The notes under the pieces were generated by a model, which was given only the letters and a program-made list of their open reading frames with translations, was not told the origin of the DNA and did not search any database. Position numbers and translations under genes: made by a program. A DNA stretch of 64,000 nucleotides from positions 1,440,001-1,504,000 of the forward strand of contig CP000068.1 in the NCBI GenBank assembly GCA_000002445.1. The letters are read 5' to 3'. The stretch is from Trypanosoma brucei (taxonomy: Eukaryota). This document shows, one piece after another, positions 3,731 to 52,935 of the stretch. Numbering within the stretch: position 1 is the first letter of the stretch; each line of letters opens with the position of its first letter.

Positions 3731-4406
3731 AACGTAAAAAAATATCCATTAAATAAACATAATTAACTAAGGTGGAATAAAACTCATTTTTCATGTCCTA
3801 TAACCGTACTACATTACATCAACAGGACACTTTCATACATATTTTATTAAAAATTTTGAAATATACATTGTGATTCCGACCACCTCATCGTGGTGCGAGG
3901 GTCTAGTACTCCGTCCAGAAGGAATCCAACTGCCCCTATCACACACTCTCCGACAGGATTGTGACGAGAAACAGGACTTCTACCACAAGAGAAGGAGAAA
4001 GTAGCAGCATCGGCACTCTGGGGTAAAGAAATATATTAGACTGCTCCTTTGCAGGTGCGAGCGTTCCTCGATTGGGATACATAGGCTTCTACTACTACTT
4101 AGTGGAGATGTATAACAGAATACCAGTCTCATGACTCTTGGAGCCCAGTGGAATGATGGAGGTCTCTCCAAAGCAACGCGGATCGCCTTAGAGAAGAAAC
4201 TCCACAAAGATATGGTAGTCTTCTGTTTATTTTAGGAGACACACTTAGAAGCAGAAAAGTGCTGTGCATTAAAAATCAAAGGATACCAACACATGGTGTC
4301 ACATTCTCTGCATGGTGGTAAGGTATTAATTCTAGTGAGAGAACGCGTGGAAATCATCTAAGGTCCGAAGAAGGAGGGACTGCCGAAAAGTTCCTCGGAA
4401 ACACTG

Positions 4407-7191
4407 ATGTTTTCAGCCGATTTAACGTTAAATATAAAATCAGCTTACTTTCCACAGAAAAATGTCACTATATCCACGCTTGAAATCTTTGAGAGCTCAA
4501 ATAGAACACTGTTGATGGGATACGACACAAACGCACGTCATGAGTTACGGGACCTGTTATGCTCAAATGATACTGTAGGAGAATTTTTGTGGACTGGTGT
4601 CTACAAAATGATATCAAAATTGCAAATGGTGTCAACCCAACGATAAGAATGCTTCACACGGAAGCCATGCCATTTCCAGACGTTACGATGTACAGAGACT
4701 GCAAAGCCATAAGATGGGAGGCAAGTTTCAGTCCAGATAGTGACAACTACTGGATAACGTTTGAGGTGTGCATTGTGATTGGTGTAGAAACGATCGTCAT
4801 TGCAAACCCGCGAAGTGTGTTGTATGCTTGGAACAAAGCAAATTTGTGAGAGTTTAAAAAATGTGTGGCGTAACAATGTTGAAAAAATTAAGCAATTCGA
4901 AAAAAAAACGTGGATTCCATGAATGAGGCAGTGACTAAAGTCATTCGCACAGCAGCAAAGAAAACGATAACGAAATGTAAGTGAGTATTGCTACAGTTCT
5001 GGACACAAGAACTCGCCGAACTGGACACAAAAATAAGAGAGTATACAAATGAAAAGCACAGAGATGTCCTTACATAAAAGAGAAGGAAGGTTCTCACTGA
5101 AACGTCCCTACAACGGTGGAAGGAAAATGTGCCGAAGATGTCAGTGACCGATATTAAAAGTTCGAGTTTAGTTAAGTCCATTTATGCACAGAGAACACTG
5201 ACATCTCCGGTTATGGTAGTGAATGACCACCCCCTAACACGCAGACAGCAAGATAATAAGCTAGCACATATGTATAGAAACTCGCCGACGAAAGCACCAA
5301 ATGCTCCTTCCATGAGTACACCATATCGAGTGAGCGGAAAATTCGCACCAATAACGATGACATAATTTGAGATGGGACTGAGGGAAATGTCTTAAATCAC
5401 TTCCCCCTGTAAAGATGATATACATCGTAAACAACTGAGGAAATTAGGATGCCGTACCAAGTAATGTGTCCTCAAGCTTTTCAACTGTAGCCTACAGAGA
5501 CGCAGGATCCCGAAAAAGTGGAAGCATGACGTTATTGTCCCTATGCTCAAACCCAACAAACCGGCCAAGTGTATGTCATCGTTCCGGCCCATCACACTCA
5601 AAAGCACCCTCTGTAAACTCATGAAGAGGAATGTAGCGTGACGCATACAAGACACAGTAGAGTGTAAGCTACAACCAAAGCAAACTGATTTTCGTCCGGG
5701 GAAGTCTATATTAGACGTCACCATGAAACGCACAGACTCCATGACTCATAGAGTAGCAGGAGAAAAAACTGCTACGGTATTCATTTATTATGCTAGGGCA
5801 TTTGACTCTGTGGATCACATGTGCATAATGGATGCATTAAAAAGATATGAGGTGAACATGCGCCTCATTGCATGGGTTGCTAATTTTCTGTAGCGAAGGA
5901 CTGCAGTAGCATTAATAAACAACACCCCCTCAAAGAAAATACAGCTCACGTGTGGTGTTGTACAAGGTTCCGTGTTGTGGCCGTTGCTTTTTATTATCGC
6001 AATAGAGTTCCTCAGCGCGAAATTAAATGCCATACCAGCCTTTCAACACTGCTTACTCACAGACGACCTCACGATAGTGTCTTCTAACACTGACATGGAA
6101 GCTATTCGGTAGACGATACAAACAGGATTGGATTGTATAGTGAGCTGGTCAGCAGAGCGCTATATGAAGGTGTCTGCAGAAAAAACGCAATAGACGTTCT
6201 TTGTGGTGAGAGACAGAGACTAATTACACCTAATGGTGGGAGAGTACAGATTACATTAGAAGAGATATCTCAGACTCCTTGGGATGACAATGTAGCCACA
6301 CAAGGATGTAAACAAACATGCTCACACCCTACAAACAGCAGAAAATATGAGATTAATGAAACTAAGTGCTGTTGCATCACCTGAATAGGAGGATAGTAAA
6401 GAAAGCATCCGAGCATTTTACTTAGCCTTAATCCAGGCGAAATTATGCTATGGTACCGCTGCATGCTGGCTCAATGATTCTCCATCATACAAAAAAAAGC
6501 TTGACCGAGTACATGCGCAGAAGGAACATGTTATCGCGAGCATTCCAAAGTACGCGAATCGGGAAGATGCCATGAATGAGGCCCGCCTTCACAAGATAGA
6601 TGATGTTGCTTACAGACGAGCAATAGAATACTATTTAACAAGGAAAGCGAACGGTAAGGCAACGGTCTATACAGTGGAAAAAATGTTCTCACACAGTCAT
6701 CCGATACACACGCGTGTGTTGAGTGTGCCATACTTGTATGAGAAAGTAGATGGATCGGAGACGCCACACACGGCAAACGTATTGCAACTGGAGAGGAGAC
6801 TATACTTCAACACCGCAACGCCAGGTGGTCTCCATTCTGACTCTTCAGACAGCGATAAAAAAGACACATAATGCAAAGTGTACGCAGATTCAAAGACTAC
6901 GATTACCAAGTGTGTACGGATGGGTGGGTGGGACTGAATAAATCCTCTGGTGCCGGCGCGATAATATACCCTAGACAAGGTAATGTGGTAAAAGTGAAGA
7001 AAGGAGCAGACAGGTTAGTGTACAGCTACAGAGGCGAGTGTGCAACCATGGAGGGAGGACTTATGAAACTTAAGTCAGTAATAATGATCAAAGAGAGTAG
7101 AAAAATGAAAGTGGAAATATTCGCAGACTTGTTGCCTTTATTAATGGCACTTAAAACGGGTCTTACAGTAGTGAAAGATTCCATACTGTGA
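4407..7191 (+). pseudogene. Frame-broken endonuclease, reverse-transcriptase and RNase H polyprotein remnants of the ingi-like element
   Basis: Consecutive short ORFs in all three + frames align with the corresponding fragments of the second ingi in the window. There is no continuous ORF. Confidence 0.65.
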
Positions 7192-7765
7192 TGCATATGG
7201 AATTTGATCATACACTTCATGAAACTGAGAGTAGCCATGTCACTTCAGTTTGAGTTTTTTCATTCCCATATCCCGAGAAATAACAAAGTGAACGAGGTCG
7301 TAAACAAAGGAAACCACATGCCGCAAACCTAACCCTGCATTAATCACCGACATTTTAAGATGTATAATGCGCCAATTACGTAATCAGGCACAGCGGAACA
7401 TTGCGGAAGGCCGGCACCAAAACACACACCGCAGTGCTTTACTTAACCACATGAAACCAACATCCAAAAAGAAAGGATGCTGATAGGGAAGATGAGTCAC
7501 TGTTAGCTCAATTTAGAACAGGGACTTCAAAACATTTTGGGTTGCTGTATAAGGTGATCACATGAAAAGTGGACGAACTGGAGTGTAGATGGTGTGCAAA
7601 CCATACGGATAACATTCTCAAGAATATCACTGCATTACTCAAAACACTGCAAAGATGTAATAAAATGAGGAAGGAAAGGTGGTAATAGCTACAAGACAGA
7701 ATGACCCTGTCATATGCTCAGTTTGCAACATAATGTGTGAGAGATGACAAGCTGGAGATATTCAC

Positions 7766-9352
7766 ATGTTAAAAATACATCAGGTGGTTTGTGAAAATGC
7801 ACTTCCTGGATTAAAGATTGCGCCAATAGCAGCACAGGCGTATTCTGGCGTCTATCAGTGTCACTTATGTGGTAACGTATTCGAACGAAAGGGGACTACT
7901 GCAACAACATATGCTACAACACCTTCTCACAACTCCAGTAGTATGGAAAGAGCGACAAAAGAGGAAACGAGAAGAAAAAGAACAATGTATAACAACTGTA
8001 CACAAGTGTCAATGACGCCCCAAGCAGTATGCCACGTATAGCTTGTTGACAAGGCATATGTGTCAGAAACATCCTGAAAAGCAAACCGACGTGACACAAC
8101 AAACGGAAATACAAGATGTGAGTAGCGAAGATGAACAGGAGAAAGGAAAAGAAGCATACGAATGTCTCCGCTGCAAACAGGCGTATAAAAGGAAAACATG
8201 GCTTCACCAAACATAAGTGTAATCCTAAGCAGGGTAAAGGGAAACCAAGCGCACAACTACAGCACGTGCTGCCGGAGAGAGAAACATGTAAGATATGCGG
8301 TAAAGAGTACCGTCACAGCTGGATGTTGAGCCATATGAATACAAAACACCACGGGCATGATATCTCACTCAGACCCAAAGTCGATAAATATAAGAAAAGT
8401 AACGAATGAGATATCAAATTTGTAAGCAAAGGAAAACACTGGTGGAGATAATAAAAATAAAGATGACAATATGCCAAAACTTTATGTTGTGACAAATGCA
8501 AGAGGGGTTTCAAAAGCAAGGCATGTCTAACACGCCACAAGTGCGTGAGCATCGAAAATGCGGACCCAAAATGTCAATTTTGTGAACAACCCCCATAGTG
8601 CAATTACACAACCAGAAAACACTAACAAAAATAGATCGAATGTCAGCACCATAGATAGAGCACTCCCAAACTCAGACTCGTCACACAGAAAAAACTTGAT
8701 TTCCACGACAAGAAAGAGAAAAAGAAGAGACCGAGAATGACACTCCAGAAGGTATTAGAAAAATGTTCGATCAGAGAGAGGAGCTCAAACACAAAAGGCA
8801 GAAGGGCAAACAAAGAACCATCGTAGAGAGTTTGCATGTAAAAGGTGTGAGAACACCTGCGTGTCCTGGTGCACCCTAGCATGGAATACCAGAACACACC
8901 ACAAAAATGCAATCACTGTAAAGAGGAAGCGCGAAGAACGATCCCTTGAAATCACACCACAGACCTCTCTCGAGCACCAATGTTCACACTGCTTGAAGGT
9001 ATTTGCACACAATCAATATCTCACAATGCACCTCCAAGCAGCACATGGGCAGACACGTAACACTGATAGGCGAAATGAGCTAAAAGGAAAATGCAAAGAA
9101 ACATCGGCTCACCTATTACAGTCTCCCGCTTTGAGTAAGCTCATGTCAGAGCATAGAGTAGACAGTCTGAAAGAGGATTACTTATACTTTAGTGTTAAGC
9201 TGACGAACTTCCCAAAAGCATTCTTCTCTCCGACTGCAAATTCGGCTTCCACCATAGAAGCGAAGAAATTGATAACCCGACCGCGAGTAAATAGTGATAA
9301 AGGTTACCATCATGTTAAATATTCACTGACTACATGCGACACACTCGGATGA
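7766..9352 (+). pseudogene. C-terminal C2H2 zinc-finger region of the ingi-like polyprotein, fragmented
   Basis: Three CxxC...HxxxH motifs sit in separate ORF fragments. They are homologous to the zinc-finger fragments at 47903-48250 and 48887-49117 of the minus-strand ingi. Confidence 0.6.
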
Positions 9353-9744
9353 GAACCAGTGAGATTTTCCCCAAATAATGGACAACAATATCCAAAGAGG
9401 GCTTCCTCAACAAGACACCATTAGCCAGGCCCCACAGGAGGAAGCGAGTGGCGGATCGTGAAGATGGAAAACATATCAGCGAAGGATGTTGCCACAAGGA
9501 AAGTTTATATTGATCGATTGAGGCGCATGCAAGTTAATTTACAATGATAAAAATTTTAGATTTTTTATATATTTTAAAATTTTCAAAATTTTCAACAATT
9601 GACTCGTTATGAAACAATGTAAAAGCATATAAAGTTTCAGAAATTTCATAATATTCCACCAAAATAAAAAGTATTTTAGAAATTTCATAAAATTTATATA
9701 AATTCTTTATAATCCTCAAAGTCCGCAAAATACTAAACTTATAA

Positions 9745-11242
9745 AAGCAGTAGCCATACTTAGAGCAAATTTCTTATTGATAAGGGAACTGGAATCTTTG
9801 TAATTCTATCCTTCCCATTTGCAATTCGGAGATTTGCAGTCATCCATTTTCTTATCCTTGCATTTCTATGTTGTTGTTTCGGTTCCACAAGTTTGAGTTT
9901 TTGTTTCAGGGACACCATTTGCTGTGGATTTGGTTGCGTTAAACTTGCACTTTTTATCCTCTTCAGTTTCGGTACTGTTATAACTACAGAAAGGTTTGTC
10001 GTTGCATTCGTTTGCATCCTTTATTTTATTGCATTCAGTTTCCCCTAAGTTGTTGTTGCTCGCCGACAACCGGGCTACAGTCAGCTCCTTTCTTAGTTTG
10101 CTTATAAGCTCCGCTGCTTCCTTCTCGCAAAAAGCCAGGATCGCCGCCAGCTGCCCTGGCTCCGTTACAGCTCGTAGCTCTGTTTCGTCGCCGTTGTTAA
10201 TTATTTTCATTGTCAATTTGTAACTATAGACTTCGTGGAGAAAGGCTTGAATTTTGTCTTTTACTGGTTCTTTGAACGCCTTCTTGACTTTGTCGTCTAG
10301 CTTCAGGTTTGCTTTGTCGGTTGTGGCGTGGATGAGGTGTAAAACGGCTTCTTGGAGGTCCGGCGTCGCTTCAGATACCGTGGTGTTGTCGTTTTTGGCG
10401 GGGTTTTCTGTTTAAAGTGCTTCAATGGCGTTATAGAGGTCGTTCCATACCTTCGCGTCGCCTGTTGTTTGTGCCTTTGCCGTCCCCAACCCCAGTATTG
10501 TTAGGGCATTGTTCGCCTGCGAGACACTGATGAGGTTCATGGCGAGTTTCGCTGGCTGTGTTAGGGCTCCGTCTTTTGCTAGTCCGTTTGCGTTTTGAGC
10601 GTTGAAAAGCACGCAGTCCTTGCTCGCTTGTGTTTGGTGTTCGTTGGCGCTGGCCGCCTCAAGCATGTTTGTGAAACCGCTGGCGTCCGTTAAGTCGAGG
10701 TTATAGTCTCCGGTTACGTCTATGTTTGGCGTTACTGCGCAACTTGTGCCGCCTGCTCCTTGTAGTTTGGTTGCGTGGCAGTAGCCGCTGTTAGCTTGGT
10801 CGAGGAGGCAGCCTTTTCCGCCGTTTACAGTGTGCGTCGCAATCGTCAAAAATTCGGTCAGTCTGCCTTGGAAGTATTCAGCGGCGCTGCTTGCTTTAAT
10901 GGCAGTTTCAATGGCGACACTTGTTAAATTGTTTAGCGTTTTTTCTGCTTTTGTGGCAAAAAATACTTGCAGTATCCGGGCTTGCCGGGCTTTATCCGCG
11001 TCCGCTGTTTTCATTGCAAAGATGGCGCAACGTGTTGCTGTTTTGCTTAGCCGCTGAGCTAGTTTTGTGGTTTCTTTTAGCTTTGTGGCCGCTGCTTTAG
11101 GCACCTGGCCTAGTTTGTCCGCAAGGCCGCATATTTTTGTCCAGGAGCCGTGAACCATGCCGTCGCCTGCAGCCGGGGATGCCTTCTGAGAATTTACTAT
11201 CATTATGAGCAAGGCTTGAGCGAATGCTGCTACCGCCTTCAT
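9745..11242 (-). pseudogene. VSG pseudogene (frameshifted)
   Basis: ORF 10412-11314 has the signal peptide 'MKAVAAFAQALLIMIVNS' and a VSG N-terminal domain. The C-terminal domain lies in other frames (9866-10216 '...CNKIKDANECNDKPFCSYNSTETEEDKKCKFNATK'). The GPI tail '...NKKFALSMATA' precedes a stop near 9745. Confidence 0.75.
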
Positions 11243-26699: not shown

Positions 26700-28230
26700 T
26701 CCGAAATCTTAAGAAATTCAAGAAAATTTCTTATTTACGAGGAAACTGGACTATTTGCGAGGTTCGCTCTCCCACTTACATTCCGGATATTTACAGTCTT
26801 TTTGCTCTTTTCCTTCGCACTTGGAGTCATTTTTCCAATCATTTCCTACTGTTTTGTCTGCTTCTTTTTGTGCTTTTCCCCTTTCTCTCTCAGTACACAT
26901 TTTGGTCTATCTTTTATGTTGGCATCGTATTTGCAGTTTTTGTCATCATTGCACTTTTCGGCGTCTGTTTTTTCGTTGCAAGTTTTCTCTATTGATTTTA
27001 CTTCTTTTTTGCCATTTTTATGTTCATGGCTTTCACTTTTAGTTTGTTGTTTTCAGCTTGTTGCAAGAAAATTTGGGATTTATATGCGTTGATTTTGTAA
27101 CTGAGATATTGAATCAGTTTCTTCGGTGTGTTAAGTTCAGCCACAGTGTCGGCCTCAGATTTTTCTGCCTGTTGTTTATCTATTGGTGTATTTTGTATAG
27201 TGATCCACAACTTTTTTAGGTTGGGGCCAGCATCTCCTGCCATTCTTTTGAATGTCCCTTCCGCCTTCTGGTCCGCCGGGTCGTCATTCTTCGCAAGCCT
27301 GCTTTGCACTGCCAGCTCCGCTTTTATTGGCTTTATCAGGCTTTCGGTCGCTATGGTGTTGATGAGGTCCTATTGCGTTTCCTCAGCCTGTGCCGGTTGT
27401 CTGTTTTCTAGATTGTTGAGCAAATGATGGGCTAAGTTGATTATCTTTTTGTTGCCGATCGGTTTTGTCTGTGGCGTCTTCCCGACGCCGTGGACTAGTA
27501 GTGCCGCATTGCCGTCTGCTGTGAATTTTAATATAACGGCCATGGTTTTTTGTTTGTCTGGATTGAATTTGTGTTACCGGTGTTCCTGGCTGCGGTGGGT
27601 ACACATTTGTTGTCTTCTGTGTTTGTTGCTGCTAGGTTTGGTCGTACGCGCGTCAGCTCTGAAAACCATGCAGGTATTATTTTTGTGTTGCTGATTTTGG
27701 TTACCGCTGCCGTCAGCGGTGACAGTTTGACTGTGCATCGACTTAGGATCGCGTCATCTGCTGCTGTGCTGGCTGCTGTTTGAGTGTTTAGGCACCGGCC
27801 ACTGCTTGACTGTGCGTCCAGAAGGCTTTTCAGAGTTTGCTCGATGTGGCCGGGACGGGTCGACGCTACCGCCGCCGCTTCAATATTTTGGAGTGTGTCA
27901 CTTACCACCCCGTTTAGGCTTGCTGTGAGGCCGCTTATCGCTGTGGAAGTTACAACACTGAGTGCAAGGGTTGCATTGGTGTCGCCTACTGTTGCTGCTC
28001 TTGAAAGCGGTGCTATTGCCAACGTAAGCGATGTTTGACCTTTTTTGGTTTCTTGTAGTGCGATCCAGGTTACTCTACTTGGCGCTTTCGCTGGGTTCGC
28101 TGTAAAGGTACAGGCCTTTGTCTACGCTGCATAGCCGCTGGGGTTGCTGCCTCCGTCTGTTAGTTTTGTCAGTGGGCTGAGCAACGTTACAGCAACCGCT
28201 AAGCGTACAGATTCTATTTGAATAGCCGTT
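26700..28230 (-). pseudogene. VSG-related pseudogene (no signal peptide found; in-frame stop in the GPI-tail region)
   Basis: ORFs 27528-28022 and 26998-27309 are Ala/Thr/Ser-rich with spaced Cys. The 3' end and downstream region (26440-26760) are homologous to the 3' end of the VSG-related gene at 59778-61330, where the tail reads 'KDYSFLFNKKFSW'. Here the corresponding stretch reads 'QIVQFPRK*'. Confidence 0.5.
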
Positions 28231-29049
28231 TTTGAATGTTCTAGTATGCCTATCTCTAATATTCCCTCCCTCTTTTTTCTTCCTTTACTTTCGCGATGCT
28301 ATTTTCTTTTATTGCCATTTTTCAGCTTGAAAAAGGCTACGGATTTGGTTCTGTGCCGTCTTTCCTGCGACTACAGTTTTTCCTGTCTCGATTCTTGCTC
28401 TAGCGTCCTGTTTTTTAGCTGGTGGCGAAGGACACTTCGCTACTGTTCGCTGTAGTTAGGTTAGCAATCGTATTTTCTAGTTTTTGGCACAAATGTAATG
28501 CATATTTGGCCATTATCTATTAAACCTTCTCTGCATTATTGCCACCGTTGCAATAATACCCCAAATTTAACCTTCGAATCCTCAGCGTTTTCTAAGTTTA
28601 ATATTTAACATTAAAGTACCCCATTATATAAAAAATCAGAGTCACTACCATCATCTCCTCTGTATCATCTATCCATTGTTGTGTAAAAATGGCACATCAT
28701 TGTTTGCTCCTGATGTATCATTGTTCGCTGGGCTTCCACCTAGTCTGTCATTTCGTTGAAAAGTTTCATCTTTCCTTTTTCCTCTGGTATCGCCGCTTCT
28801 ATATATAACGAATACATTTGGCTTGTAAACCGTGCTCTCTTTCTCTCTTTCTACACCTTATTATTCTCTCCATCATCTACTTGTGATTGAAGCTGAGCAT
28901 ATTACACGTCCCTGCTGTTCCGCTTTTCCTCTAGCAATACTCCTTTTGATAAATTCTTCTTACCAGCTGGCCCACCCACTAACTCACTCTCATTGCAACC
29001 GTTACTTTTGTTTAACTGCTTCTATTGTGGTTGTCCATTGAGTTCTCAT

Positions 29050-29130
29050 TACTAACCTTATTATAATATTTGTATACACACACGCACTACAGACTCTAGT
29101 ATCATTAGCATTACTATTATAATATCACCT
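29050..29130 (-). repeat. 70-bp repeat, single copy
   Basis: 'ttataatatttgtatacacacacgcactacagactctagtatcattagcattactattataatat'. Confidence 0.7.
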
Positions 29131-29329
29131 AAATATTTATAAAATATTTAAAATAAGAGGATAAATTGAAATTAGAATAGCATTCGTTTTTAATGCACTA
29201 TCACCTCGCTACTTTGCATACACATTCCAGTACGATACAAAAAATTTCACTAACCTTCACAATTTAGTTAAGAAATGTTAAAATATAGAAAGTTCTTGTA
29301 AATTATAAAAATAATTAAAATAGCAAATT

Positions 29330-29600
29330 CATAAAAGGAGCAGCCATCAGGGCCATTTTTTTCCTAGTAGAAAACTACTATTTCGACACTTCTCCGTATT
29401 CCTGTCGTCTTCACCATCTTTACCCTTCCGCCATGCACAATTTCGTTTACCGTCTGTTTTGTCATTCTTAGAAGCGGCTTTATATATATGCGTTGCAAAT
29501 CCAGCTGCAGCTGCTCCCTCTTTTGGTATCAGTCCTGTTCCTGCTGCTGTGGTTTCTACTCCTGCTTTAGGTTTGTACTCTTTTTTTGTTGTCATCATAG
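29330..29600 (-). pseudogene. Orphan VSG 3' fragment (C-terminal ~85 codons plus GPI tail)
   Basis: ORF 29347-29598 reads '...KNDKTDGKRNCAWRKGKDGEDDRNTEKCRNSSFLLGKKWP*'. The next frame continues 'KKMALMAA...'. This is a VSG C-terminal domain and GPI signal with no N-terminal domain upstream. What lies upstream instead is the A-tract block and the telomere repeats. Confidence 0.6.
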
Positions 29601-29759
29601 TTGCAGCCGGAAGCTGCGCATCCTTCTGTGGTCTTGCTCGTGACAGCTTTGAATTTATTCTGTTCCTCTTCTGTTATCTTCTAAAGAGATCCCTTTCGTT
29701 AGTCGTAGGGATGAAACTCGAAACCGCAAGATGGGCGTTGATGGTGCCGCTGGCTTACT

Positions 29760-30240
29760 GATAACGAATATAGGAAAAATTTGATTGAACATGGCTGGCT
29801 GCCGAATAAGGTGGCCAACCGCTTTAAAAAAACCGGCACGCCGTTTAAAAAAATATATTTAACAAAGCTACAAAAAAAAGAATTCAAAAAATTCAAAAAC
29901 CTAAAAAAATAGGGGGAAAGGAAATCATGTGACTGCTGTCGCTTAAAAAATTAAAAGGTTAAAATAAAAAATTAAAGTCGAAAAAAATTTAACCGTAAAA
30001 AAAACAAGTCGTAGCGTCACCGCGAATGAAAAAAAAAAACTGGGTTGACGGCGTGGGTAGGAAAAAAGTCGCCGCTAGACTGATGTCGAAAAAAGTTAGG
30101 GTCCGCATAACAAAACAGCCGCTGAATCACTTTTAAAAAAATTAAAAAATTAGCAAACTTATTGTAAACAAGTAAAAAAAAGAGCAAAAAAACAAAAACA
30201 ATTAAATGAAAGAAAATCAAAAAATAGTTAGAGTAAAATT
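29760..30240. other. A-tract-punctuated low-complexity block abutting the telomere repeats
   Basis: Short GC-rich islands of 10-20 nt ('ccggcacgccg', 'gtgactgctgtcgc', 'gtcgtagcgtcaccgcg', 'gggttgacggcgtgggtagg', 'gtcgccgctagactgatgtcg', 'cagccgctgaatcac') are separated every ~20-35 bp by A6-A11 tracts, often as 'ttaaaaaa(a)tt'. No coding potential on either strand. It is unlike the VSG flanks elsewhere in the window. Confidence 0.5.
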
Positions 30241-30243
30241 AAA

Positions 30244-30360
30244 CCTAACCCTAACCCTAACCCTAACCCTAACCCTAACCTTAACCCTAATCCTAACCCT
30301 AACCCTAACGCTAACCCTAACCCTAACCCTAACCCTACCTAACCTCCTAACTAACTAACC
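30244..30360 (-). repeat. Interstitial telomere repeat tract, (TTAGGG)n on the minus strand, ~17 units
   Basis: Reads 'cctaaccctaaccctaaccctaaccctaaccctaaccTtaaccctaaTcctaaccctaaccctaacGctaaccctaaccctaaccctaaccctacctaacctcctaactaactaacc'. The variant and degenerate units cluster at the VSG-proximal (right) side. That is what a subtelomere-telomere junction looks like when the chromosome end lies to the left. Confidence 0.9.
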
Positions 30361-30474
30361 TTCCTACAAAAATAAAAAAAAAAGGGAAAGAAGAAAAAAA
30401 TTTTAGTTACCAGAAAATATTTTTATCAGAATCACAAACTTACAAACAAAGTTCAATTTTTCGGCTGAATTTAG

Positions 30475-30490
30475 GTGTTAAAATATATCA
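30475..30490 (-). promoter_or_regulatory. VSG 3'UTR 16-mer stability element (perfect match)
   Basis: 'gtgttaaaatatatca' is the reverse complement of TGATATATTTTAACAC. It lies ~40 nt downstream of the stop of the VSG at 30531-31987. Confidence 0.85.
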
Positions 30491-30530
30491 GAAGTTTTCA
30501 AGTGGCAAAATTCTTTTTAAAGAGAGGGGG

Positions 30531-31987
30531 AAATTAAAAAAGCGAAAATTCAGGCCAAAGAGGGACTTTGTTAATCACAAATGAATTGCTTGCTGTGGTG
30601 TTTGTGGGTTTTCCATCTTCTTTTTTTCCCTCTACTTCTTTGTTGGCTTCCTCACTCAGTGTGCACTTTTTGTTTGCATCAGTGGCATTCTCTTTCCATT
30701 TGCATGGGGATTTGCATTCATTTTGTCCCTTCTTGTTGCAGGTTTCTTCTGTTTCAGTGATTTGCGGTTTGCATGCCTTTTTAGCTGCATCAGCTACCGC
30801 TAACATACTTTTGCCTTCAAAGTAACTGACTGCTACTTCGAAATCGTCAGACCTTGCTATATCCTCTAGCGACTTTTCAGGTTGGTCCTTTTCCAGTTTT
30901 TTGAAACTTACTCGCGTGCTTTTCAGTCCAGTAATAAATGTCGCCGAAAAATTTGAGGCATCTCCTATTAGTTCTTGCAATGCCCCTTGTACTGCCGTCT
31001 TCCCTTCGCCTGTTGTTGGGTCGCTTACTTTCTTTGGCCCCATCATCAAATTGTTTGCTGCTTGTAGTGCTTCTGGCGAATTTTTTATCGCTTCTGGGGT
31101 TATTGCTGCAAGTGATGGCGCCGGATTTGCTGCGCTTTGTTGGGCCTCGCAAAGCAGCCGAGCTAGTCGATCGCTGGGTGGCTCGTCGGCGGTGCTGCTC
31201 GGGGCGTCTTTGCATTTGGTTTCTCCGTGAGTTGTTTGTTTCAGCGGCTTGGGTGTCGTCCCAGTTTGCGTCGTTCCTGGCCATGTTATTCCGGCGGTTA
31301 GAGTGCCGGTGCCGCTGTTGGCTGTTATGCACGTTGTCCCGCTGGCTCTGCTGAATGTGTCTGATGCCAGCGTGTTTGTTAGAGTTGCGCCGTTCGTTAG
31401 TACTGCGAGATCCGTTGTGTCCGATACTTTGATTTTTGTGGCGGCTGTTGGTGCCGTCAAGGGTACATTAACACCCGCGTCCGCCAGAGTTTTGAAGTTG
31501 CAGCTGCTGTCGGGGCGGGCAGTTATCGTCATCGTCTGTTTGCACGTTGTTGAGTCAGGCGTCGTCGCTGTTCCTAGAGTTGCTGTTTTCTGAAGCTCGA
31601 AAGCATGCTGGCGCCCGCGTAAATAGCCTTCGTGTCGGGACATTGCTACGATGAGGTCGACCTCTTTGTGCATCTTCTCGTTCTGTGCCTTGCCGACTTG
31701 CTTCAAGAGGGTCGTCGCATACGCTTTTAGAACAGCGTAGAAATGCTTTTTTTCGGGTCTGTCTCCACTCCCCTTGCGAGGTCCCACACTTTTGTCATCG
31801 TTGCAAGGCTTTCGCTGCTTGGGCCGCTTTGTTTAATTCGCGGAGTGTAAGTTTCGACAGCTGTTTTGAAATAAACTGCTTCTTTGCATGGAGTGTTTAT
31901 TGCGCTAAGCATGTCGTCCTCTGGTGTCGCCTGCGAGATGGTTACCACCGCTGCATAAAACAGAAGGCCGACCGTGGATGGTGCCAT
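30531..31987 (-). pseudogene. Telomere-repeat-adjacent VSG, full length except one frameshift and an altered GPI tail
   Basis: N-terminal ORF 31727-31987 has the signal peptide 'MAPSTVGLLFYAAVVTISQA'. The main ORF 30534-31787 (417 codons) carries a VSG N-terminal domain and the C-terminal domain '...CNKKGQNECKSPCKWKENATDANKKCTLSEE...NTTASNSFVINKVPLWPEFSLF*'. The two frames overlap over 31727-31787, which contains a T7 homopolymer (~31747-31753). The frameshift could therefore be real or a sequencing indel. Confidence 0.85.
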
Positions 31988-33239: not shown

Positions 33240-34030
33240 GCGTTTAGTCTTTATTATTATCATTATTATCATTAATGTTATTACTGCTCTCATTATAATA
33301 TTCGTATATACACACTCACAACACTTTCCTATTATTATTATTACTATTTATACTATTACTGCTCTTATTATAATATTCGTATATACACACTCACAACACT
33401 TTCCTATTATCATTATTATCATTAATGTTATTACTGCTCTCATTATAATATTCGTATATACACACTCACAACACTTTCCTATTATCATTATTATCATTAA
33501 TGTTATTACTGCTCTCATTATAATATTCGTATATACACACTCACAACACTTTCCTATTATCATTATTATCATTAATGTTATTACTGCTCTCATTATAATA
33601 TTCGTATATACACACTCACAACACTTTCCTATTATTATTATTACTATTTATACTATTACTGCTCTTATTATAATATTCGTATATACACACTCACAACACT
33701 TTCCTATTATCATTATTATCATTAATGTTATTACTGCTCTCATTATAATATTCGTATATACACACTCACAACACTTTCCTATTATCATTATTATCATTAA
33801 TGTTATTACTGCTCTCATTATAATATTCGTATATACACACTCACAACACTTTCCTATTATTATTATTACTATTTATACTATTACTGCTCTCATTATAATA
33901 TTCGTATATACACACTCACAACACTTTCCTATTATTATTATTACTATTTATACTATTACTGCTCTTATTATAATATTCGTATATACATACTCACAACACT
34001 GTTCTATCATTATTACAATTATAACTATTA
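33240..34030 (-). repeat. 70-bp repeat tandem array, ~10 copies of 76-77 bp, two alternating subtypes
   Basis: Repeated unit '...attactgctct(c/t)attataatattcgtatatacacactcacaacactttcctatta...'. The spacer is either 'tcattattatcattaatgtt' or 'ttattattactatttatact'. The order is II,I,II,II,II,I,II,II,I,I. It lies ~1.25 kb upstream of the telomere-adjacent VSG. Confidence 0.9.
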
Positions 34031-47605: not shown

Positions 47606-50600
47606 TTTTTTTTTCATTGTGCATTTATTGTGCTCGTGCTTCGGTAGGGTCGTTACTGCTCCTGTGGCTCTGCAAACCAGAAAGGGACGTTGAGCGCAAC
47701 GGGGATCCCATCCTCGCTTTATTGAATGAAACTTTGAAGCTGATTGACTTATCCGCAGTTTCAGCTTCAAGGGGACGTTTCCTCATGGTTTCTGCAGTGC
47801 ACACCCATAACGACTTCGCTGCCGCAGAGGTGTGGTAGGCGAAATCCAACTCCGTGGGCGACCAGTGCCTCTTCACGGCTTGAGTGGGCCCAGATGTTGA
47901 CTCTAAGATTGGGGGGAGGGGGCAGATGGGCTCTCTAGGTTTAAGAGCTCCTTCAGGAAGCTGGCTAGTTGCACACTGAAGAACACTTCCTCGTCCTTCA
48001 GGGTTTCCAGACCGTGCTTTTCCCTTAGTGCTCGCAAGCTTGGGCACTGAAAGAGGTGCACTGCAGACTCCTTACACTTCACCTTCACTGAGTTATACTC
48101 AGCTTTCTTCTTCAGTTGGCCGTGCTTCGCGTGCAGGTGTATCGTGAGGCACTGCTTGACTGTGCACTTCATTTGGCAGTATGGACACTGGAGTGACCTT
48201 TGCAAAAGAGGTGTTACCGCTACCGTGCGGTCCTTCAGCTTCCGTTTCACTGCCGTGGCGTGCTCATGATGTGTGCGCGTGTGTCAAATCAGTGAGCACC
48301 ACTGCTTGTACGCCCTGCTGCGTCTATCATACACATAGTCCATTCCCTCTTTTCCTTCTGTGTGGCGGCCCACCCGAGGACGCTTCTGCGGTCTCTCCCC
48401 ATTTTCCCTTCCTGCTGACTCCAATGACCCACTCACCTTACTCTTTGCCTGAGCTTATGCTTTCACTACCTTTCGCTTTGCCTTCTCTTGTGGCTGAGGA
48501 CGCAATGACTCGTCGTGACCCGGGTGCTTTTCCAGCATGTGTCGCAGCAACCATCTGTAATGATATTGCTTTCTAAAAATGGAACACGCCACTGTAACCG
48601 ACTGCTCTGCCATGTTAGAGTCTTCCGAGTTCGTGTTCGAGGTTGGTTCGCACTTGTGCCTGGTGGGCCATGTCTTGCTTTTGAGGACGCGTTGGCACCT
48701 GTAGCATACAAATTCCTTTTTATCCTGCTCCTCCTGCTCTGCATCGCCATCACTGTCGGACGCGTCCTGTGACTCTATGGCGCTGCGCCTTAACTGCTTT
48801 TCCGGGTTTTTCTGCAGCCACGCGTGTACAGTGTACTTTTTCGCACACCAACGCCATTTGAGTGCGTTGCCATTATCGGCCCCATCTTACTCCACTGCTG
48901 GCACTCTATCCGGAGGGTGCTGTGCCATATACTCCACGAGTAGCCCACACCGCTCAAAGACATCACCGCACACATGACATCTGTAACCATTCTTATGCGT
49001 CTGCACCGCACCCTTAGCTTTCTTGGTCAGTGCTAATGCATAATTCCTCCCCAGACCATGAATCTTCACTAGGTGCACCACGTCAGGCTTTCTCCGCCCG
49101 CAAACCACGTTGAACAATCGGCAAGTGATCTGGTCGTTGCTCCTTGTCGCGATTCCAGGATATGGTGCGTTCGCATTGTCCGATGCTTACTCCGCCCCCC
49201 GGGCGCTCCTCTGCTGTGTCGCTGCGTGGTTCCTGCGTGTCGCACCGTATGCATCCAAGCTGGTCCGTCTTGCGTGTGAGCACCCTGTTAAGCGATCCAA
49301 AATGCTTCGAAGTGCCTGTTCTGAAGTGCGCCATCAGCGTCTCACCCAGACGTACCAGCCTTGTGTGCTTCGGTGCGGCCCGAACGTAGTCGAGTAGCGC
49401 ACTACGATGCGTACGCGGCATCCGGACCTCCTTGAAGGCCTTGTATACCGCATTCCCGACCTTCCTCTCCACACACGTCACTATGTCAGTGATCCATGCT
49501 GGATACGACTGCAGCTTTGTGTTTCCCTGCTCAACTGCCTTTTCAGCAGCTTCATCGCGCGGCACCCCGCAGTGTGAGAACACGAAATGGAAGTTGACGG
49601 ACACAAGAAGCCGCACAATACTCAAGATAAGATCCCAAATGCGTCCCAGAATCGAGCCCTCCACAACTTCAGGGCCAGTGCTCAGCGCCATCAACAGCGA
49701 AATTAAATCCGTGAGGGTCACCACTCTCGTTCTGTGCGTCTTGCTTAGCTCCATGAAATCCGCTAGCCTCTTCAACCCCGCCTCCATCGCCGCACATTCC
49801 GTGCGATAGCTGCAGGATGGCGACCCAACTCCCAGGGCAACCTTCTTCCGCTTCCTCTCTTTCGGGTACACAAGGGCACCTGCGCCTGAAGAGACGTCCA
49901 GCACCACGGACCCGTCCGTCCACACCTGGTTATCATAGTCCTTGAACAACTGTACCTGCCGCATGGTGTGCACCTTCTTGTCCCTCCCCGGCGCACCCGC
50001 TTTGAGGCCGCCTGGCTCGTTGGTGTTAAAGTGGACGCACGTGGCCATCCGCAACACCGTCGCATCGTGTGGATTCTCAGGGCCATCAATGGTGTTTTAC
50101 GGACGCTGTACCGTCGCAAGCATGACATGGGCTGGATGCTCAGGCGGGAATATGCTGTTCGTAATTTTTAATTGCGTTGGGCACTCTGCTTTCAGGCGTA
50201 GATAGCATGCCAAGGCTCTCAGGTGCGCCATATCATTTATAAACTTTAGCCGAGCTTCTCACACGGCATCCTCCCGATTGGCTGCCTTGGGAATACCCGT
50301 CATTATGTGTGCTGCCTGTGCCTGCACCCTCTCTAGCCTCTCATGATCCGACAGCGAGGAATCGGACCACCATGAAGCAATGCCGTAGAATATCTTAGCC
50401 CGGACCAGCACTAGGTAGAATGCTCGCAGTTTCTCCCTGTCTGGGCCCCATTCTGGCGACACCACTGCCCTAAGCTGCATGAGCCGCGTGTCTGCCGCTG
50501 CCTTCACGCTCCGTGCATGCTTGCTCAAACCCTTGTGCGGCTGCACGGTAATACCGAGCAGCTTCGGTGTGTACACTTCCTTCAACACAGTCTCTCCAAT

Positions 50601-52886
50601 CCTCAGGTAAAGCAGGTTTGTGTCCCGCGCACCGAACAGTGTGTACTCAGCTTTCCCCGCTGACCAATTTGTGACTCAACTCAGTCCTTGTTGAACGGTT
50701 CGCTGGATTGCATTCAGGTCAGAGCTCGTGCATACTATTGTGAGGTCGTTCGCAAAGAAAACGTGCTGCAACCCAGGGATGCAGTTCAGCCGCTTGCTCG
50801 GCGAATCCACCTTGACAATGAACAGCAGTGGACCATGCACCGAGCCCTGAGGGACCCAGCATGTGAGGTGTATGTTCTCAGACAGCATATTGCTCGCCCC
50901 CACCCGCGCGGTGCGACCCTGCAGGAAGCCCGCAATTCACGCCACCAGATGCTTCTCAACTCCAAATGTCTCTAGTGCCTTAACCATGCAGCCGTGATCA
51001 ACCGAATCAAAAGCGCGCGCATAGTCAATAAATACAGCTGCTGTCTTCTCACCGTCCCTCCTCCGCCGCACTGCGCTTGTCACCTGCATGAGCGTGTCCA
51101 GCGTCGACTGCGCCGGCATGAAGCCTGCTTGCTGTGGCTGCAGATTGTCTTCAATGCAGTTCCTAACACGACGTGCCACAATGTGCTCCATCACTTTGCA
51201 CAGCGTGCTGATGAGAGTGGCCGGCCGAAAGGACGCGGTACTGCTAGCTGGCTTGCTCGGCTTAAGCAGCGGGACTGTGATGCCGTGCCTCCACTTGGCT
51301 GGTACCCTCCCCGCGCGCAGACTGCAGATGAACAGTCGCAGCGCACACTTTTTGGCTACTCATCCTAGCTGCTTCAGCTCCTCTCAGTGGATTCCATCAT
51401 CGCGCGCCGCCGTGCCAGAATGCAGCTCACACAGCGCAACTTTCAGCTCTGACTCGGTGACCGGCCGGAACGCGCTCCGTCTGGTGCTGGGTATCTTCAT
51501 TTCTGGCGCATGTGGTGCCTTCGTTGACCTGGCCTTGTACATGTTGACCAAAGTTTGTGCTTACTGGCGCTTTGTCAACCGATGGCCATTCACCACCAGC
51601 ATTGGCGAAGTCAACGACCGCGGCGCATATACCGACTTCACCAGGTTCCAGTTCGCCGAATCCGTGGTCGCCGGCTTCGACACATTTTCCTTCCACCAAC
51701 CCAGCGCCGTTTCAGCCAGCGCTTTCTTCCTCCAGCGAGTCAGCCCGTCCAGATTCGTCAGCCCCTGTGTCCAGAACGGTAACGCTACGCCCTTGCCCTT
51801 GGGAATTGTCCTCTTTGCGGCCATTCGGATGCCTCATGTCACCGCCTCGTCGAGGGCATCCGCGCCCTTGTCCGGCCTCTTCATTCCTCTGAATATGAAC
51901 TCGTCACTCAATTTTCTAAACTCCTGTCACCTCGCTTTGTTCCGTGCATACAGTGTACGTGTGGGCTTGGGGGGGGGGGCAATCACGTCTAGGCAGGTGC
52001 CCCACGAACACATCGAACGTGATCTAATAATGATCACTGTGCGGGCTCAGTGTGTATGCCAAGTTAGAGATCTCGCGCAGCCTCCACACAACGTGATGTC
52101 CGGCGACGATAGTGCACCCGTTCCCGGCTGCCTCCTGGTGATCGATCCGGTATTCGCAACTTTCAGATCGCTCTGCACGCACCAGTTGACTACGCACTCT
52201 CCCTTGTCGTCGCTCGGACGAAACGGATCCCACAACACGTGGTGTGAGCTCACGTCCGCTTCTGCTACCAATGGCCCGCTTTCTACCGCTAATTGTTTCA
52301 ACTATGCTTTTGAATTCATCGATTTTCTAGGAAAATAAGCTGAAGCGCCTGCCAGGTTCACAGCAGCAGAAAATCGCAGCGTCGCTGTCACTTTTTCTGG
52401 CACTTCCTTGTCCATCTTTCACACCCCCACTCCCACCCCTGTGCGGTGTTTTTGCCACAACTACATGCTGCTATCCGCCTATTTGAAGCGCAGCACACTC
52501 CACCGACGCTAGGAGTGTCTCCTGCAAGAGACAAAATAAAACCATATCCTCATGAATCTTCCTCTTCATGACAACCCGCTTCGACTGGAAGAAACCCCTA
52601 AATTTCCACTGGTTTCCACGAATAACGGGAGCAAGATTCGTCTCAACATCTTCACTAAGTAGTAGTATAAGCCTTTTTATCCCAATCGAGGTAAGGTTGC
52701 ACGTGCAGAGGAGCAGTCTAATATATTGCTTCACCCTAGAGTGCCGATGCTGCTACATACTTCTTCTCTGGTCGCCGAAAGCCCCCTTTCCACCCCAATC
52801 ATGTTAAACAGGGCATAATGCGGGCGCTTGTCTTCCTCCTGGATAAAGTACTAGACCCCGGCACCACATTGAGGTGACCGGCATCA
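47606..52886 (-). mobile_element. ingi: ingi non-LTR retrotransposon, ~5.28 kb, degenerate (frame-broken)
   Basis: The 5' end (minus sense) is '...ccatggtgatgccggtcacctcaatgtggtgccggggtctagtactttatccaggaggaagacaagcgcccgcattatgccc...', the RIME/ingi terminal region. The 3' end is '...gagcacaataaatgcacaatg' plus A9 (poly-T at 47606-47614 on +). Internal minus-strand ORF fragments cover the endonuclease (52047-52301), 51561-51824, RT (50937-51194 '...AAVFIDYARAFDSVDHGCMVKAL...', 50676-50903, 50259-50588), RNase H (49083-50057) and C2H2 zinc fingers (48887-49117 'HVCGDVFERCG', 47903-48250 'CPYCQMKCTVKQCLTIHLHAKHG'). The coding region is interrupted by multiple frameshifts. Confidence 0.9.
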
Positions 52887-52935
52887 CCATGGAAATCTGC
52901 AAATTTTAGTAAAAAAAAGAGCAAGAATTCATAGA

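What the first reader, a model, noticed from the sequence alone, without database searches (positions are those of the whole stretch)
29760..30240. Unexplained A-tract-punctuated low-complexity block directly beyond the telomere repeats
About 480 bp of 10-20 nt GC-rich islands are separated by A6-A11 tracts at ~20-35 bp spacing, with many 'ttaaaaaa(a)tt' motifs. The block has no ORF and no resemblance to the VSG flanks, 70-bp repeats or ingi sequence seen elsewhere in the window. It occupies the position of the partner DNA joined to the short telomere. Candidate explanations are filler or partner DNA of an end-joining event, remnant of a retroposon poly(A)-rich tail, or intrinsically bent DNA from phased A-tracts. 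A single 'gttagggtcc' occurs inside it.
Basis: seen in the sequence. Interest (0 to 1): 0.6.

Follow-up and report, generated by a model that had tools for sequence, protein, structure and literature searches.

The report
Orphan A-rich filler beside buried telomere
A real but apparently functionless ~570-bp stretch of A-run-studded DNA of unknown origin sits where an old, worn-down chromosome end carrying a surface-antigen gene was joined into a silent antigen-gene array of Trypanosoma brucei; it is most likely a repair scar.

Summary
Positions 29775-30224 carry 20 A-runs of at least 5 nt and no T-run of at least 5 nt. That includes 17 of the window's 65 A>=6 runs; no other 481-bp window has more than 4-5 such runs. 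The block is unique in the window.

The window is T. brucei TREU927, a Sanger-era reference, so a long-read basecalling artefact is excluded.

Read on the minus strand, the layout is: 70-bp repeats, VSG-A, its 3'UTR, about 16 degenerate TTAGGG repeats, the block, the C-terminal fragment and 3'UTR of another VSG, then the next cassette. The block therefore lies exactly beyond a relic chromosome end.

Negative results:
- No helical phasing of the A-tracts, so the bent-DNA idea is not supported.
- No credible coding or RNA signal.
- No match to ingi, 70-bp repeats, VSG flanks, minicircle conserved blocks, vectors, E. coli, plasmids, phages, or prokaryotic, viral or metagenomic contigs.

Best reading: orphan DNA trapped when an eroded VSG telomere was joined to a break inside an array VSG. 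Its source could not be found because no trypanosome genome could be searched.

Two further clues are unresolved: strict strand polarity (compatible with telomere-primed reverse transcription) and TTAGGG-like fragments in the opposite orientation (compatible with head-to-head fusion). Interest is modest.

The parts
29672..30239 (.). Orphan non-coding block. The A-run-punctuated core is 29775-30224 (A-runs on the + strand, T-runs on the minus strand, which is the sense strand of the array).
   Evidence: Sequence. Run counts, shuffles and sliding windows. Unique in the window. No internal repeat family. No Rfam hit at E<=1. No Pfam or homologue support for any frame. Left limit set by the end of weak VSG C-terminal-domain similarity at 29671.
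30240..30366 (-). Relic telomere. About 16 hexamers, (CCCTAA)n on the + strand and (TTAGGG)n on the VSG sense strand; 12 of 16 are canonical. Degenerate GGTTAG/TTAGGAGG-type repeats lie on the VSG-proximal side (30335-30366). The distal end is abrupt at 30240.
   Evidence: TRF: 30240-30337, period 6, 16.3 copies, 92% matches; 30335-30366 degenerate. Hexamer register. It is the only telomere tract in the window.
30367..30533 (-). VSG-A 3'UTR and downstream polypyrimidine tract. It carries the only exact copy in the window of the VSG 16-mer TGATATATTTTAACAC (30475-30490).
30534..31987 (-). VSG-A, a telomere-type VSG cassette that is frameshifted near its N-terminus in this strain. Its 70-bp repeat array lies upstream at 33255-34015.
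   Evidence: ORFs 30534-31787 and 31727-31987. 98% identical to EATRO1125 VSG 1125.3097. 70-bp repeats.
29327..29671 (-). VSG-X: a C-terminal-domain fragment only (frameshifted), including the GPI-signal region. It is the broken array gene on the other side of the junction.
   Evidence: Weak tblastn matches to VSG C-termini (RNTEKCRNSSFLLGKK, KKMALMAAPFMN, EEEQNKFKAVTSKTTEGC). DNA similarity to other VSG 3' ends at 29307-29384. A database search found no close relative.
29131..29326 (-). VSG-X 3'UTR, with a degenerate 16-mer-like CTATATTTTAACAT.
   Evidence: Read from the sequence. Similarity to other VSG downstream regions.
29048..29130 (-). Single 70-bp-type repeat that opens the next VSG cassette (VSG-B, about 27000-28500).
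   Evidence: blastn to the 33255-34015 repeat array at 77-80%.

Best explanation
The block is junction DNA in a chromosome-rearrangement scar, not a working element.

Proposed sequence of events:
1. A VSG cassette once sat at a chromosome end. It consisted of 70-bp repeats, VSG-A, a 3'UTR with the canonical 16-mer, and then TTAGGG repeats.
2. Its telomere wore down to about 100 bp.
3. This uncapped end was joined to a double-strand break inside another VSG (VSG-X) of a silent array. Only the C-terminal part and 3'UTR of VSG-X survive.
4. About 570 bp of unrelated, A-run-rich, non-coding nuclear DNA was trapped between the two ends as captured or filler DNA. Trypanosomes rely on microhomology-type joining rather than classical NHEJ.
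5. The tract has since been carried passively in the TREU927 chromosome.

Shown: the layout, orientations, boundaries, uniqueness, lack of coding, RNA or structural signal, and lack of helical phasing.
Inferred: the joining event, its pathway, and the lack of function.
Not resolved: where the 570 bp came from.
For: - Order and orientation of the parts.
- TTAGGG is on the VSG-A sense strand and starts 168-197 nt after the stop. This sits at the low end of the 200-1590 nt reported between VSG and telomere repeats in expression sites (PMC2567434).
- Degenerate repeats lie on the VSG-proximal side and the distal end is abrupt, beginning CCTAAC.
- VSG-A is the only VSG in the window with an exact 16-mer.
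- On the far side there is only a VSG C-terminal fragment followed by a normal 3'UTR, a 70-bp repeat and the next cassette.
- The block is unique in 64 kb. It has no repeat family, no Rfam hit, folding z-scores of only -1.2 and -1.6, and no credible protein homologue.
- It is not vector, E. coli, plasmid or phage DNA. Four different 21-24-nt islands have no exact match: two tested in bacterial/archaeal contigs, two in metagenomic contigs (one island in both), one in viral contigs.
- The source genome is the Sanger-era TREU927 reference.
- Trypanosomatids mainly use non-NHEJ joining, with Pol theta-dependent MMEJ (PMC8311970).
- Short interstitial telomere tracts at break-repair sites are an established class in other eukaryotes (PMC7215372 abstract).
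Against: - No source for the block was found, so 'captured DNA' is a default rather than a demonstrated origin.
- Randomly captured DNA does not predict the extreme one-strand polarity (20 A-runs versus 0 T-runs). It also does not predict the enrichment of TTAGGG-like pentamers on the + strand (10 observed versus 2.4 expected, P about 0.003, a post-hoc test).
- No microhomology or templated copy from nearby sequence was detected.
- No second strain or allele could be examined, so the event itself is inferred from a single sequence.
Confidence: 0.55

Rival explanations
1. RNA-templated filler. The 3' end of the eroded telomeric G-strand primed a reverse transcriptase of the ingi type. This resembles endonuclease-independent LINE-1 insertion at dysfunctional telomeres. 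The enzyme copied A-rich or oligo/poly-adenylated RNA, possibly with several template switches, and the cDNA end was then joined to the break in VSG-X. Each 'island plus A-run' would be the 3' end of one RNA with its tail.
For: - All 20 A-runs are on the + strand. On the strand that carries TTAGGG, the repeats are followed by T-rich sequence (TTAGG|TTTAATTTTAC...) and by 20 T-runs and no A-runs. This single polarity is what RT priming from a G-strand end enforces.
- No target-site duplication was found, as expected for endonuclease-independent events.
- Three consecutive units are islands of 21-24 nt followed by A6-A11.
- An ingi element lies in the same array.
- Precedent in mammals: L1 RT acting at uncapped telomeres (PMC4700185).
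Against: - There is no pure poly(T) at the telomere junction, although the neighbouring repeats are still 92% intact.
- About 20 template switches in 450 bp would be unprecedented in vivo.
- Several 'islands' are only 1-6 nt long.
- No similarity to the ingi copy in the window.
- No spliced-leader sequence.
- The source RNAs are unidentified.
- It does not explain the TTAGGG-like fragments on the + strand.
Confidence: 0.13
2. Head-to-head end fusion. The block is the terminal (telomere-associated) DNA of a second chromosome end that had lost essentially all of its own repeats. It fused to the short VSG-A telomere, giving [partner subtelomere with degenerate TTAGGG-like remnants on the + strand][(CCCTAA)n].
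For: - Telomere G-strand pentamers are enriched on the + strand of 29690-30239: 10 observed versus 2.4 expected in dinucleotide shuffles, P about 0.003. C-strand pentamers are not enriched (2 versus 2.6).
- These include GTTAGTCGTAGGG at the VSG-X boundary (29698), GTTAGGGT (30095) and TAGTTAGAG 13 nt from the junction (30225). The last resembles the degenerate proximal repeats on the VSG-A side.
Against: - Four of the ten pentamers come from a single heptamer, and the test was post hoc.
- There is no 6-bp periodicity and no tandem repeats on that side.
- The model needs an earlier event that left a truncated VSG-X next to this DNA.
- It still does not say what the A-run-rich DNA is.
- Fusion of two array-bearing ends predicts a dicentric chromosome unless further breaks followed.
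Confidence: 0.12
3. Captured kinetoplast DNA: a minicircle fragment, with its A-tract bend region, trapped at the break. This would be a trypanosome equivalent of a nuclear mitochondrial insertion.
For: - Minicircles carry phased A-tracts upstream of CSB-1 and are A/T-rich with strand bias (PMC6868439).
- The right-hand 100 bp of the block is A/G/T-rich and C-poor.
- A small fraction (0.26-0.33%) of CSB-3-containing reads map to the TREU927 nuclear reference (PMC6868439 Table 1).
Against: - CSB-1 (GGGCGTGCA), which is invariant in 391 minicircles, is absent; the best match has 2 mismatches.
- CSB-3 is absent; the best match has 3-4 mismatches of 12, which is chance level.
- The A-tracts are not in helical phase.
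- The CpG-rich islands of 58-71% GC do not fit the G/C-poor cassette-flanking regions described for minicircles.
Confidence: 0.03
4. A functional cis-element, for example nucleosome-excluding or bent poly(dA:dT) DNA acting as a boundary, replication origin or recombination hotspot next to an interstitial TRF-binding tract.
For: The density of A-runs is about eight-fold higher than anywhere else in the window. It lies next to about 100 bp of TTAGGG that could bind telomere proteins.
Against: - It is single-copy in 64 kb of otherwise repetitive cassette architecture.
- No helical phasing.
- No conserved motif or internal repeat.
- No comparative evidence of conservation was obtainable.
- The position is fully explained as a junction.
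Confidence: 0.04
5. Assembly or cloning artefact: a chimeric clone joining a telomeric fragment to an array fragment, with junk DNA between them.
For: Arrays and telomeres are hard to clone and assemble. The block matches nothing that could be searched here.
Against: - The source is the finished Sanger-era TREU927 reference.
- No vector, E. coli or plasmid sequence.
- The telomere tract carries several variant hexamers and degenerate proximal repeats, typical of the oldest, innermost part of a real telomere.
- Both flanks continue as regular cassettes.
Confidence: 0.05

Closest known systems
Interstitial telomeric sequences (ITS) and chromosome-end fusion or capture scars in other eukaryotes
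   Same: A short, partly degenerate TTAGGG tract at an internal site, lying at the junction of two unrelated sequence blocks and flanked by DNA with no local homology (class described in the PMC7215372 abstract).
   Different: Here the tract is clearly the inner end of a genuine gene-proximal telomere (VSG 3'UTR, then degenerate repeats, then canonical repeats). It is not a few repeats added by telomerase at a break. It is also followed by about 570 bp of orphan A-run-rich DNA, whereas the flanks would be expected to abut directly.
Telomeric VSG cassette of bloodstream, metacyclic or minichromosomal loci in T. brucei
   Same: 70-bp repeats, VSG, a 3'UTR with an exact 16-mer and TTAGGG repeats, in the same order and orientation. 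The VSG-to-repeat distance (168-197 nt) is near the lower end of the published 200-1590 nt range.
   Different: It lies inside a silent array in TREU927. The telomere is only about 100 bp long and the chromosome continues beyond it.
Endonuclease-independent LINE-1 insertion at dysfunctional telomeres (Morrish et al. 2007, as reviewed in PMC4700185)
   Same: Telomeric G-strand repeats are followed directly by T-rich sequence of a single polarity. There is no target-site duplication and no endonuclease-type target site.
   Different: No retroelement body, no clean poly(A)/poly(T) at the junction, and many short A-runs in place of a single tail. Membership is not established.
Kinetoplast minicircle A-tract bend region
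   Same: A cluster of A5-A8 runs on one strand, as in the stretch 29872-29909 (description of the bend in PMC6868439).
   Different: The tracts are not in phase with the helix. CSB-1 and CSB-3 are absent, and the GC- and CpG-rich islands are unlike minicircle DNA.

Membership tests
Internalised chromosome end / interstitial telomere scar | Tandem telomere hexamers at a non-terminal position | tested here: met
   30240-30337, period 6, 16.3 copies, 92% matches. It is the only such tract in the window.
Internalised chromosome end / interstitial telomere scar | Orientation and spacing of a genuine gene-proximal telomere: G-strand on the VSG sense strand, degenerate repeats proximal, a few hundred nt after the VSG | tested here: met
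   Degenerate repeats start 168 nt after the stop and canonical repeats 197 nt after it. The proximal sequence is GGTTAGTTAGTTAGGAGGTTAGGTAGGG. Published range is 200-1590 nt.
Internalised chromosome end / interstitial telomere scar | Sequence discontinuity at the distal end of the tract, with unrelated DNA beyond it | tested here: met
   The block 29672-30239 has no similarity to anything else in the window and is followed by a truncated VSG.
Internalised chromosome end / interstitial telomere scar | An orthologous or allelic locus that lacks the junction (pre-event state) | not testable with these tools
   No trypanosome genome could be searched at DNA level. Exact-protein look-ups returned no contigs.
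Intrinsically bent DNA from phased A-tracts | [quoted passage not shown] | tested here: not met
   Strongest periodicities are 15.8 and 26 bp. Power at 10-11 bp is exceeded by 85% of segment-order shuffles. Rayleigh p >= 0.08 for periods of 9.5-11.5 bp.
ingi/RIME non-LTR retroposon (tail or body) | Sequence similarity to ingi/RIME | tested here: not met
   blastn with word size 7 against the window, which contains an ingi copy at about 47606-52900, gives only low-complexity A-run matches.
ingi/RIME non-LTR retroposon (tail or body) | A single terminal poly(A) and flanking target-site duplication | tested here: not met
   A-runs are dispersed over 450 bp. No direct repeat pair brackets the block.
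Telomere-primed (endonuclease-independent) reverse transcription product | cDNA of uniform polarity starting at the G-strand 3' end with a copy of an A-tail | tested here: inconclusive
   Polarity is uniform (20 versus 0 runs). The junction reads TTAGG|TTTAATTTTAC rather than a clean T-run.
Telomere-primed (endonuclease-independent) reverse transcription product | The insert corresponds to cellular or retroelement RNA | not testable with these tools
   No T. brucei transcriptome or genome was available. No spliced leader is present (best match 17 mismatches of 35).
kDNA minicircle insertion | Conserved sequence blocks CSB-1 (GGGCGTGCA) and CSB-3 (GGGGTTGGTGTA or GGGGTTGATGTA) | tested here: not met
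   Best matches have 2 of 9 and 3-4 of 12 mismatches, which is chance level. Definitions from PMC6868439. A fragment from the variable part of a minicircle cannot be excluded.
Vector, adapter or bacterial contamination | Similarity to plasmid, E. coli, phage or prokaryotic sequence | tested here: not met
   blastn found no match at E<=0.01 in plasmids, E. coli genomes or phages. Five exact-match scans with four different islands (21-24 nt) found no match in genome, metagenome or viral contigs.
Structured non-coding RNA gene | Match to a curated RNA family, or folding beyond composition | tested here: not met
   Rfam: 0 hits at E<=1. Folding z-scores are -1.24 (+ strand) and -1.59 (- strand).
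Protein-coding sequence (lysine-rich reading of the A-runs) | An open frame with homologues or domain matches | tested here: not met
   - The 56-codon frame 29742-29909(+) hit only two internally repetitive proteins among 1.84 billion. Each repeat unit scores about 25 bits, and the total is inflated by repeat summation.
- The 45-codon frame 29999-30133(+) had no hit.
- Pfam gave nothing significant.
- Longer stop-free frames on the opposite strand are poly-Phe artefacts.

The most novel reading that the evidence does not exclude
The block is a patchwork cDNA. An eroded VSG telomere was extended by a retroposon reverse transcriptase that copied, one after another, the 3' ends of several oligo- or poly-adenylated RNAs, each giving an 'island plus A-run' unit. 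The end was then ligated into a broken array VSG. This would be the first evidence for RNA-templated repair or capping of chromosome ends in trypanosomes, and a route by which telomeric VSGs are archived into arrays.
Probability: 0.1. Interest if true: 0.7.

Novelty: new member of a known kind. Interest (0 to 1): 0.3.

Why it matters
The scar is a fossil record of how the T. brucei antigen archive is built. It shows a telomere-type VSG cassette, with the only canonical 16-mer in the window, buried in a silent array together with the stump of its telomere. That implies traffic from chromosome ends into arrays by end capture as well as by homologous conversion. The identity of the trapped 570 bp would indicate which pathway joined the ends: DNA capture, RNA-templated synthesis, or end-to-end fusion. 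If it proves to be ordinary genomic DNA, the finding is a minor annotation point. An interstitial TTAGGG tract could still matter locally, for TRF or base-J binding or as a fragile site.

Tried and rejected
- **Bent DNA.** Rejected: no 10-11 bp phasing.
- **Hidden tandem or internal repeat.** Rejected: only short 8-9 bp A-rich micro-arrays, and no repeat family.
- **A-runs as insertions into a VSG or other coding sequence.** Deleting the A-runs gives no open frame and no VSG similarity.
- **Lysine-rich coding sequence with enterobacterial-looking codons.** No homologues. The two database hits are statistical artefacts of internally repetitive proteins.
- **Vector, E. coli, plasmid, phage, prokaryotic or metagenomic origin.** No hits.
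- **Known RNA family or stable structure.** None found.
- **kDNA minicircle.** Conserved blocks are absent.
- **Nanopore or PacBio miscalling of J-modified telomere repeats (TTAGGG read as TTAAAA).** Considered, then dropped. The window is the Sanger-era TREU927 reference and there is no 6-bp periodicity.
- **Templated copying from nearby DNA (Pol theta-type).** No matches of 14 nt or longer elsewhere in the window.
- **Composition models.** Third-order Markov models trained on the window's VSG, intergenic and ingi DNA all score the islands at about the uniform level, so this was uninformative.
- **Defining the VSG-X breakpoint with a close relative.** The protein search found none.
- **Retrieving the locus from other assemblies.** Exact-protein look-ups found no contigs.
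- **Literature.** Searches for interstitial telomere tracts in VSG arrays, and for the island sequences themselves, found nothing relevant.

Full report
**What the window is**

The window is a silent VSG array of Trypanosoma brucei brucei TREU927.
- The 533-aa ORF at 52939-54540(-) is exactly XP_845139.1/AAZ11580.1, 'VSG, atypical', recorded on a 1,608,198-bp contig.
- Most VSG ORFs lie on the minus strand.
- A 10-copy 70-bp-type repeat array lies at 33255-34015.
- An ingi-type element lies at about 47.6-52.9 kb.
- TREU927 is a Sanger-era finished reference (my knowledge). Miscalling of telomeric DNA by long-read basecallers, which I considered because of the TTAAAA-like motifs, therefore does not apply.

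Yes.
- In 29760-30240 the + strand is 49% A. It carries 20 A-runs of at least 5 nt, 17 of at least 6 nt (longest 11), and no T-run of at least 5 nt.
- The 17 runs are a quarter of all A>=6 runs in 64 kb. No other 481-bp window has more than 4 A-runs or 5 T-runs.
- Mononucleotide shuffles give a mean of 3.4 runs. A first-order Markov model of the block itself gives 10.8 (P about 0.02). The clustering therefore goes beyond simple A-richness, though less dramatically once nearest-neighbour composition is allowed for.

- Islands range from 1 to 46 nt. Only about six are GC-rich (58-71% GC, many CpGs; CpG observed/expected 1.27).
- Spacing is 8-51 bp.
- The TTAAAAAA(A)TT motif occurs three times.
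- GTTAGGGTCC occurs once, at 30095.

**Anatomy of the locus, read on the minus strand (the sense strand of the array)**

1. 70-bp repeats (34015-33255).
2. VSG-A (31987-30534). It is frameshifted near the N-terminus here and 98% identical to EATRO1125 VSG 1125.3097.
3. Its 3'UTR, with the only exact TGATATATTTTAACAC in the window (30490-30475), and a polypyrimidine tract.
4. Degenerate repeats, GGTTAGTTAGTTAGGAGGTTAGGTAGGG.
5. Sixteen TTAGGG hexamers, 12 of them canonical, ending abruptly at 30240.
6. The block (30239 to about 29672).
7. Only the C-terminal domain and GPI-signal region of another VSG, VSG-X (29671-29327). Support is weak but colinear tblastn matches plus DNA similarity at the stop-codon region.
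8. Its 3'UTR.
9. One 70-bp repeat (29130-29048).
10. The next cassette.

The telomere tract has the orientation and spacing of a real VSG telomere. It starts 168-197 nt after the stop, against 200-1590 nt in sequenced expression sites (PMC2567434). The block therefore sits exactly beyond the end of a former chromosome end, between that end and a VSG that has lost its N-terminal two-thirds.

**What the block is not**

- It is unique in the window and unrelated to 70-bp repeats, VSG flanks or ingi.
- It has no internal repeat family.
- Its A-runs are not in phase with the helix. The strongest periods are 15.8 and 26 bp, power at 10-11 bp is lower than in 85% of shuffles of segment order, and Rayleigh p is at least 0.08. 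The bent-DNA idea is not supported.
- It matches no Rfam family at E<=1 and folds no better than shuffles (z -1.2 and -1.6).
- Removing the A-runs does not restore any frame or VSG similarity.

I was briefly attracted by a + strand frame in which the A-runs read as in-frame AAA AAA lysine pairs between GC-rich codons (29742-29909).
- An exhaustive HMMER search of 1.84 billion representative proteins returned only two hits. Both are internally repetitive proteins in which about 25-bit matches are summed over 5-24 repeats.
- The second such frame had no hit, and Pfam gave nothing.
- Longer stop-free frames exist on the T-rich strand simply because T-runs lack stops.
- I therefore treat the block as non-coding.

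It is also not vector, E. coli, plasmid or phage DNA. Exact scans with four different 21-24-nt islands found nothing in bacterial/archaeal genomes, metagenomes or viral contigs. The minicircle hallmarks CSB-1 and CSB-3 (PMC6868439) are absent beyond chance-level partial matches.

**Two residual clues point in different directions**

- Polarity is absolute. On the strand that carries TTAGGG, the repeats are followed by T-rich sequence and 20 T-runs, with no A-run. This is the geometry expected if the G-strand 3' end primed reverse transcription of A-tailed RNA, as in endonuclease-independent L1 insertion at uncapped mammalian telomeres (PMC4700185). Three consecutive units are islands of 21-24 nt followed by A6-A11. 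Against this reading, the junction is TTAGG|TTTAATTTTAC rather than a clean T-run, many islands are only 1-6 nt, and no source RNA or retroelement similarity was found.
- TTAGGG-type pentamers are enriched on the + strand of the block (10 versus 2.4 expected, P about 0.003), while the complementary set is not (2 versus 2.6). Examples lie at the VSG-X boundary (GTTAGTCGTAGGG, 29698) and 13 nt from the telomere junction (TAGTTAGAG). That orientation is opposite to the adjoining CCCTAA tract, as in a head-to-head fusion with an end that had lost its repeats. The test was post hoc, four of the ten hits come from one heptamer, and there is no hexamer periodicity.

**Conclusion**

The best-supported statement is structural. 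The block is orphan, non-coding DNA trapped at the junction where an eroded telomeric VSG cassette was joined to a break in an array VSG. Trypanosomatids rely mainly on non-NHEJ, microhomology-type joining (PMC8311970).

- I put about 0.55 on 'captured or filler nuclear DNA in a repair scar, no function'.
- About 0.13 on RNA-templated filler.
- About 0.12 on a fused partner end.
- Small probabilities on kDNA capture, a functional cis-element, or a clone chimera.

The origin could not be settled because none of the available collections holds trypanosome genomes. Exact-protein look-ups gave no contigs, and literature searches found no description of this tract. A single BLASTN against TriTrypDB and the minicircle set would probably decide it.

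**Novelty and interest**

Interstitial telomere tracts at rearrangement junctions are a known kind of feature. This is a clear trypanosome example with an unusually odd filler. It is of modest interest unless the filler proves to be cDNA or organellar DNA.

Noticed in passing
window 30475-30490 (minus strand): VSG-A is the only VSG in the 64-kb window whose 3'UTR carries an exact copy of the canonical 16-mer TGATATATTTTAACAC. All other cassettes have variants. This fits a telomeric or expression-site origin for this cassette.
   Followed up: partly
window 31727-31800: VSG-A is split into two ORFs by a frameshift at a lysine/A-run in TREU927. The EATRO1125 orthologue (VSG 1125.3097) reads through the same point (...RGVETDPKKKHFYAV...). 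The gene differs by only about 2 further residues in 400.
   Followed up: partly
window 26502, 34031, 36826 (+ strand): Exact TAACCCTAA (1.5 telomere units) recurs at the edge of 70-bp-type repeats downstream of VSGs, always in the same orientation as the relic telomere. It appears to be part of the repeat-flank consensus, not a sign of separate telomere relics.
   Followed up: partly
window 29690-30239: TTAGGG-type pentamers are enriched on the + strand (10 observed versus 2.4 expected, P about 0.003). This is opposite in orientation to the adjoining CCCTAA tract. It includes GTTAGTCGTAGGG exactly at the VSG-X/block boundary.
   Followed up: partly
window about 47606-52930: An ingi-type retroposon lies on the minus strand, with a short A9-10 tail at 47606-47615. 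It abuts the 3'UTR of the intact 'atypical' VSG (52939-54540). That UTR lacks a 16-mer and seems to be truncated by the insertion.
   Followed up: no
window about 4000-10000: AT skew is positive here (+0.13 to +0.40) but negative in nearly all the rest of the window. This suggests a segment of the array in inverted orientation.
   Followed up: no
window 30171-30190 vs 52908-52927: A 19/20-nt match (GTAAAAAAAAGAGCAA...) links the block to the reverse complement of the 3'UTR of the VSG at 52939-54540 (blastn E=0.012). It is low-complexity and probably chance.
   Followed up: partly
window 29742-29909 (+): This frame resembles a repeat unit of an mTERF-like repeat protein (NEYxKxLxxxGxxPxxxAxxFKK, about 25 bits per unit). 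I judged it a statistical artefact of repeat summation.
   Followed up: yes
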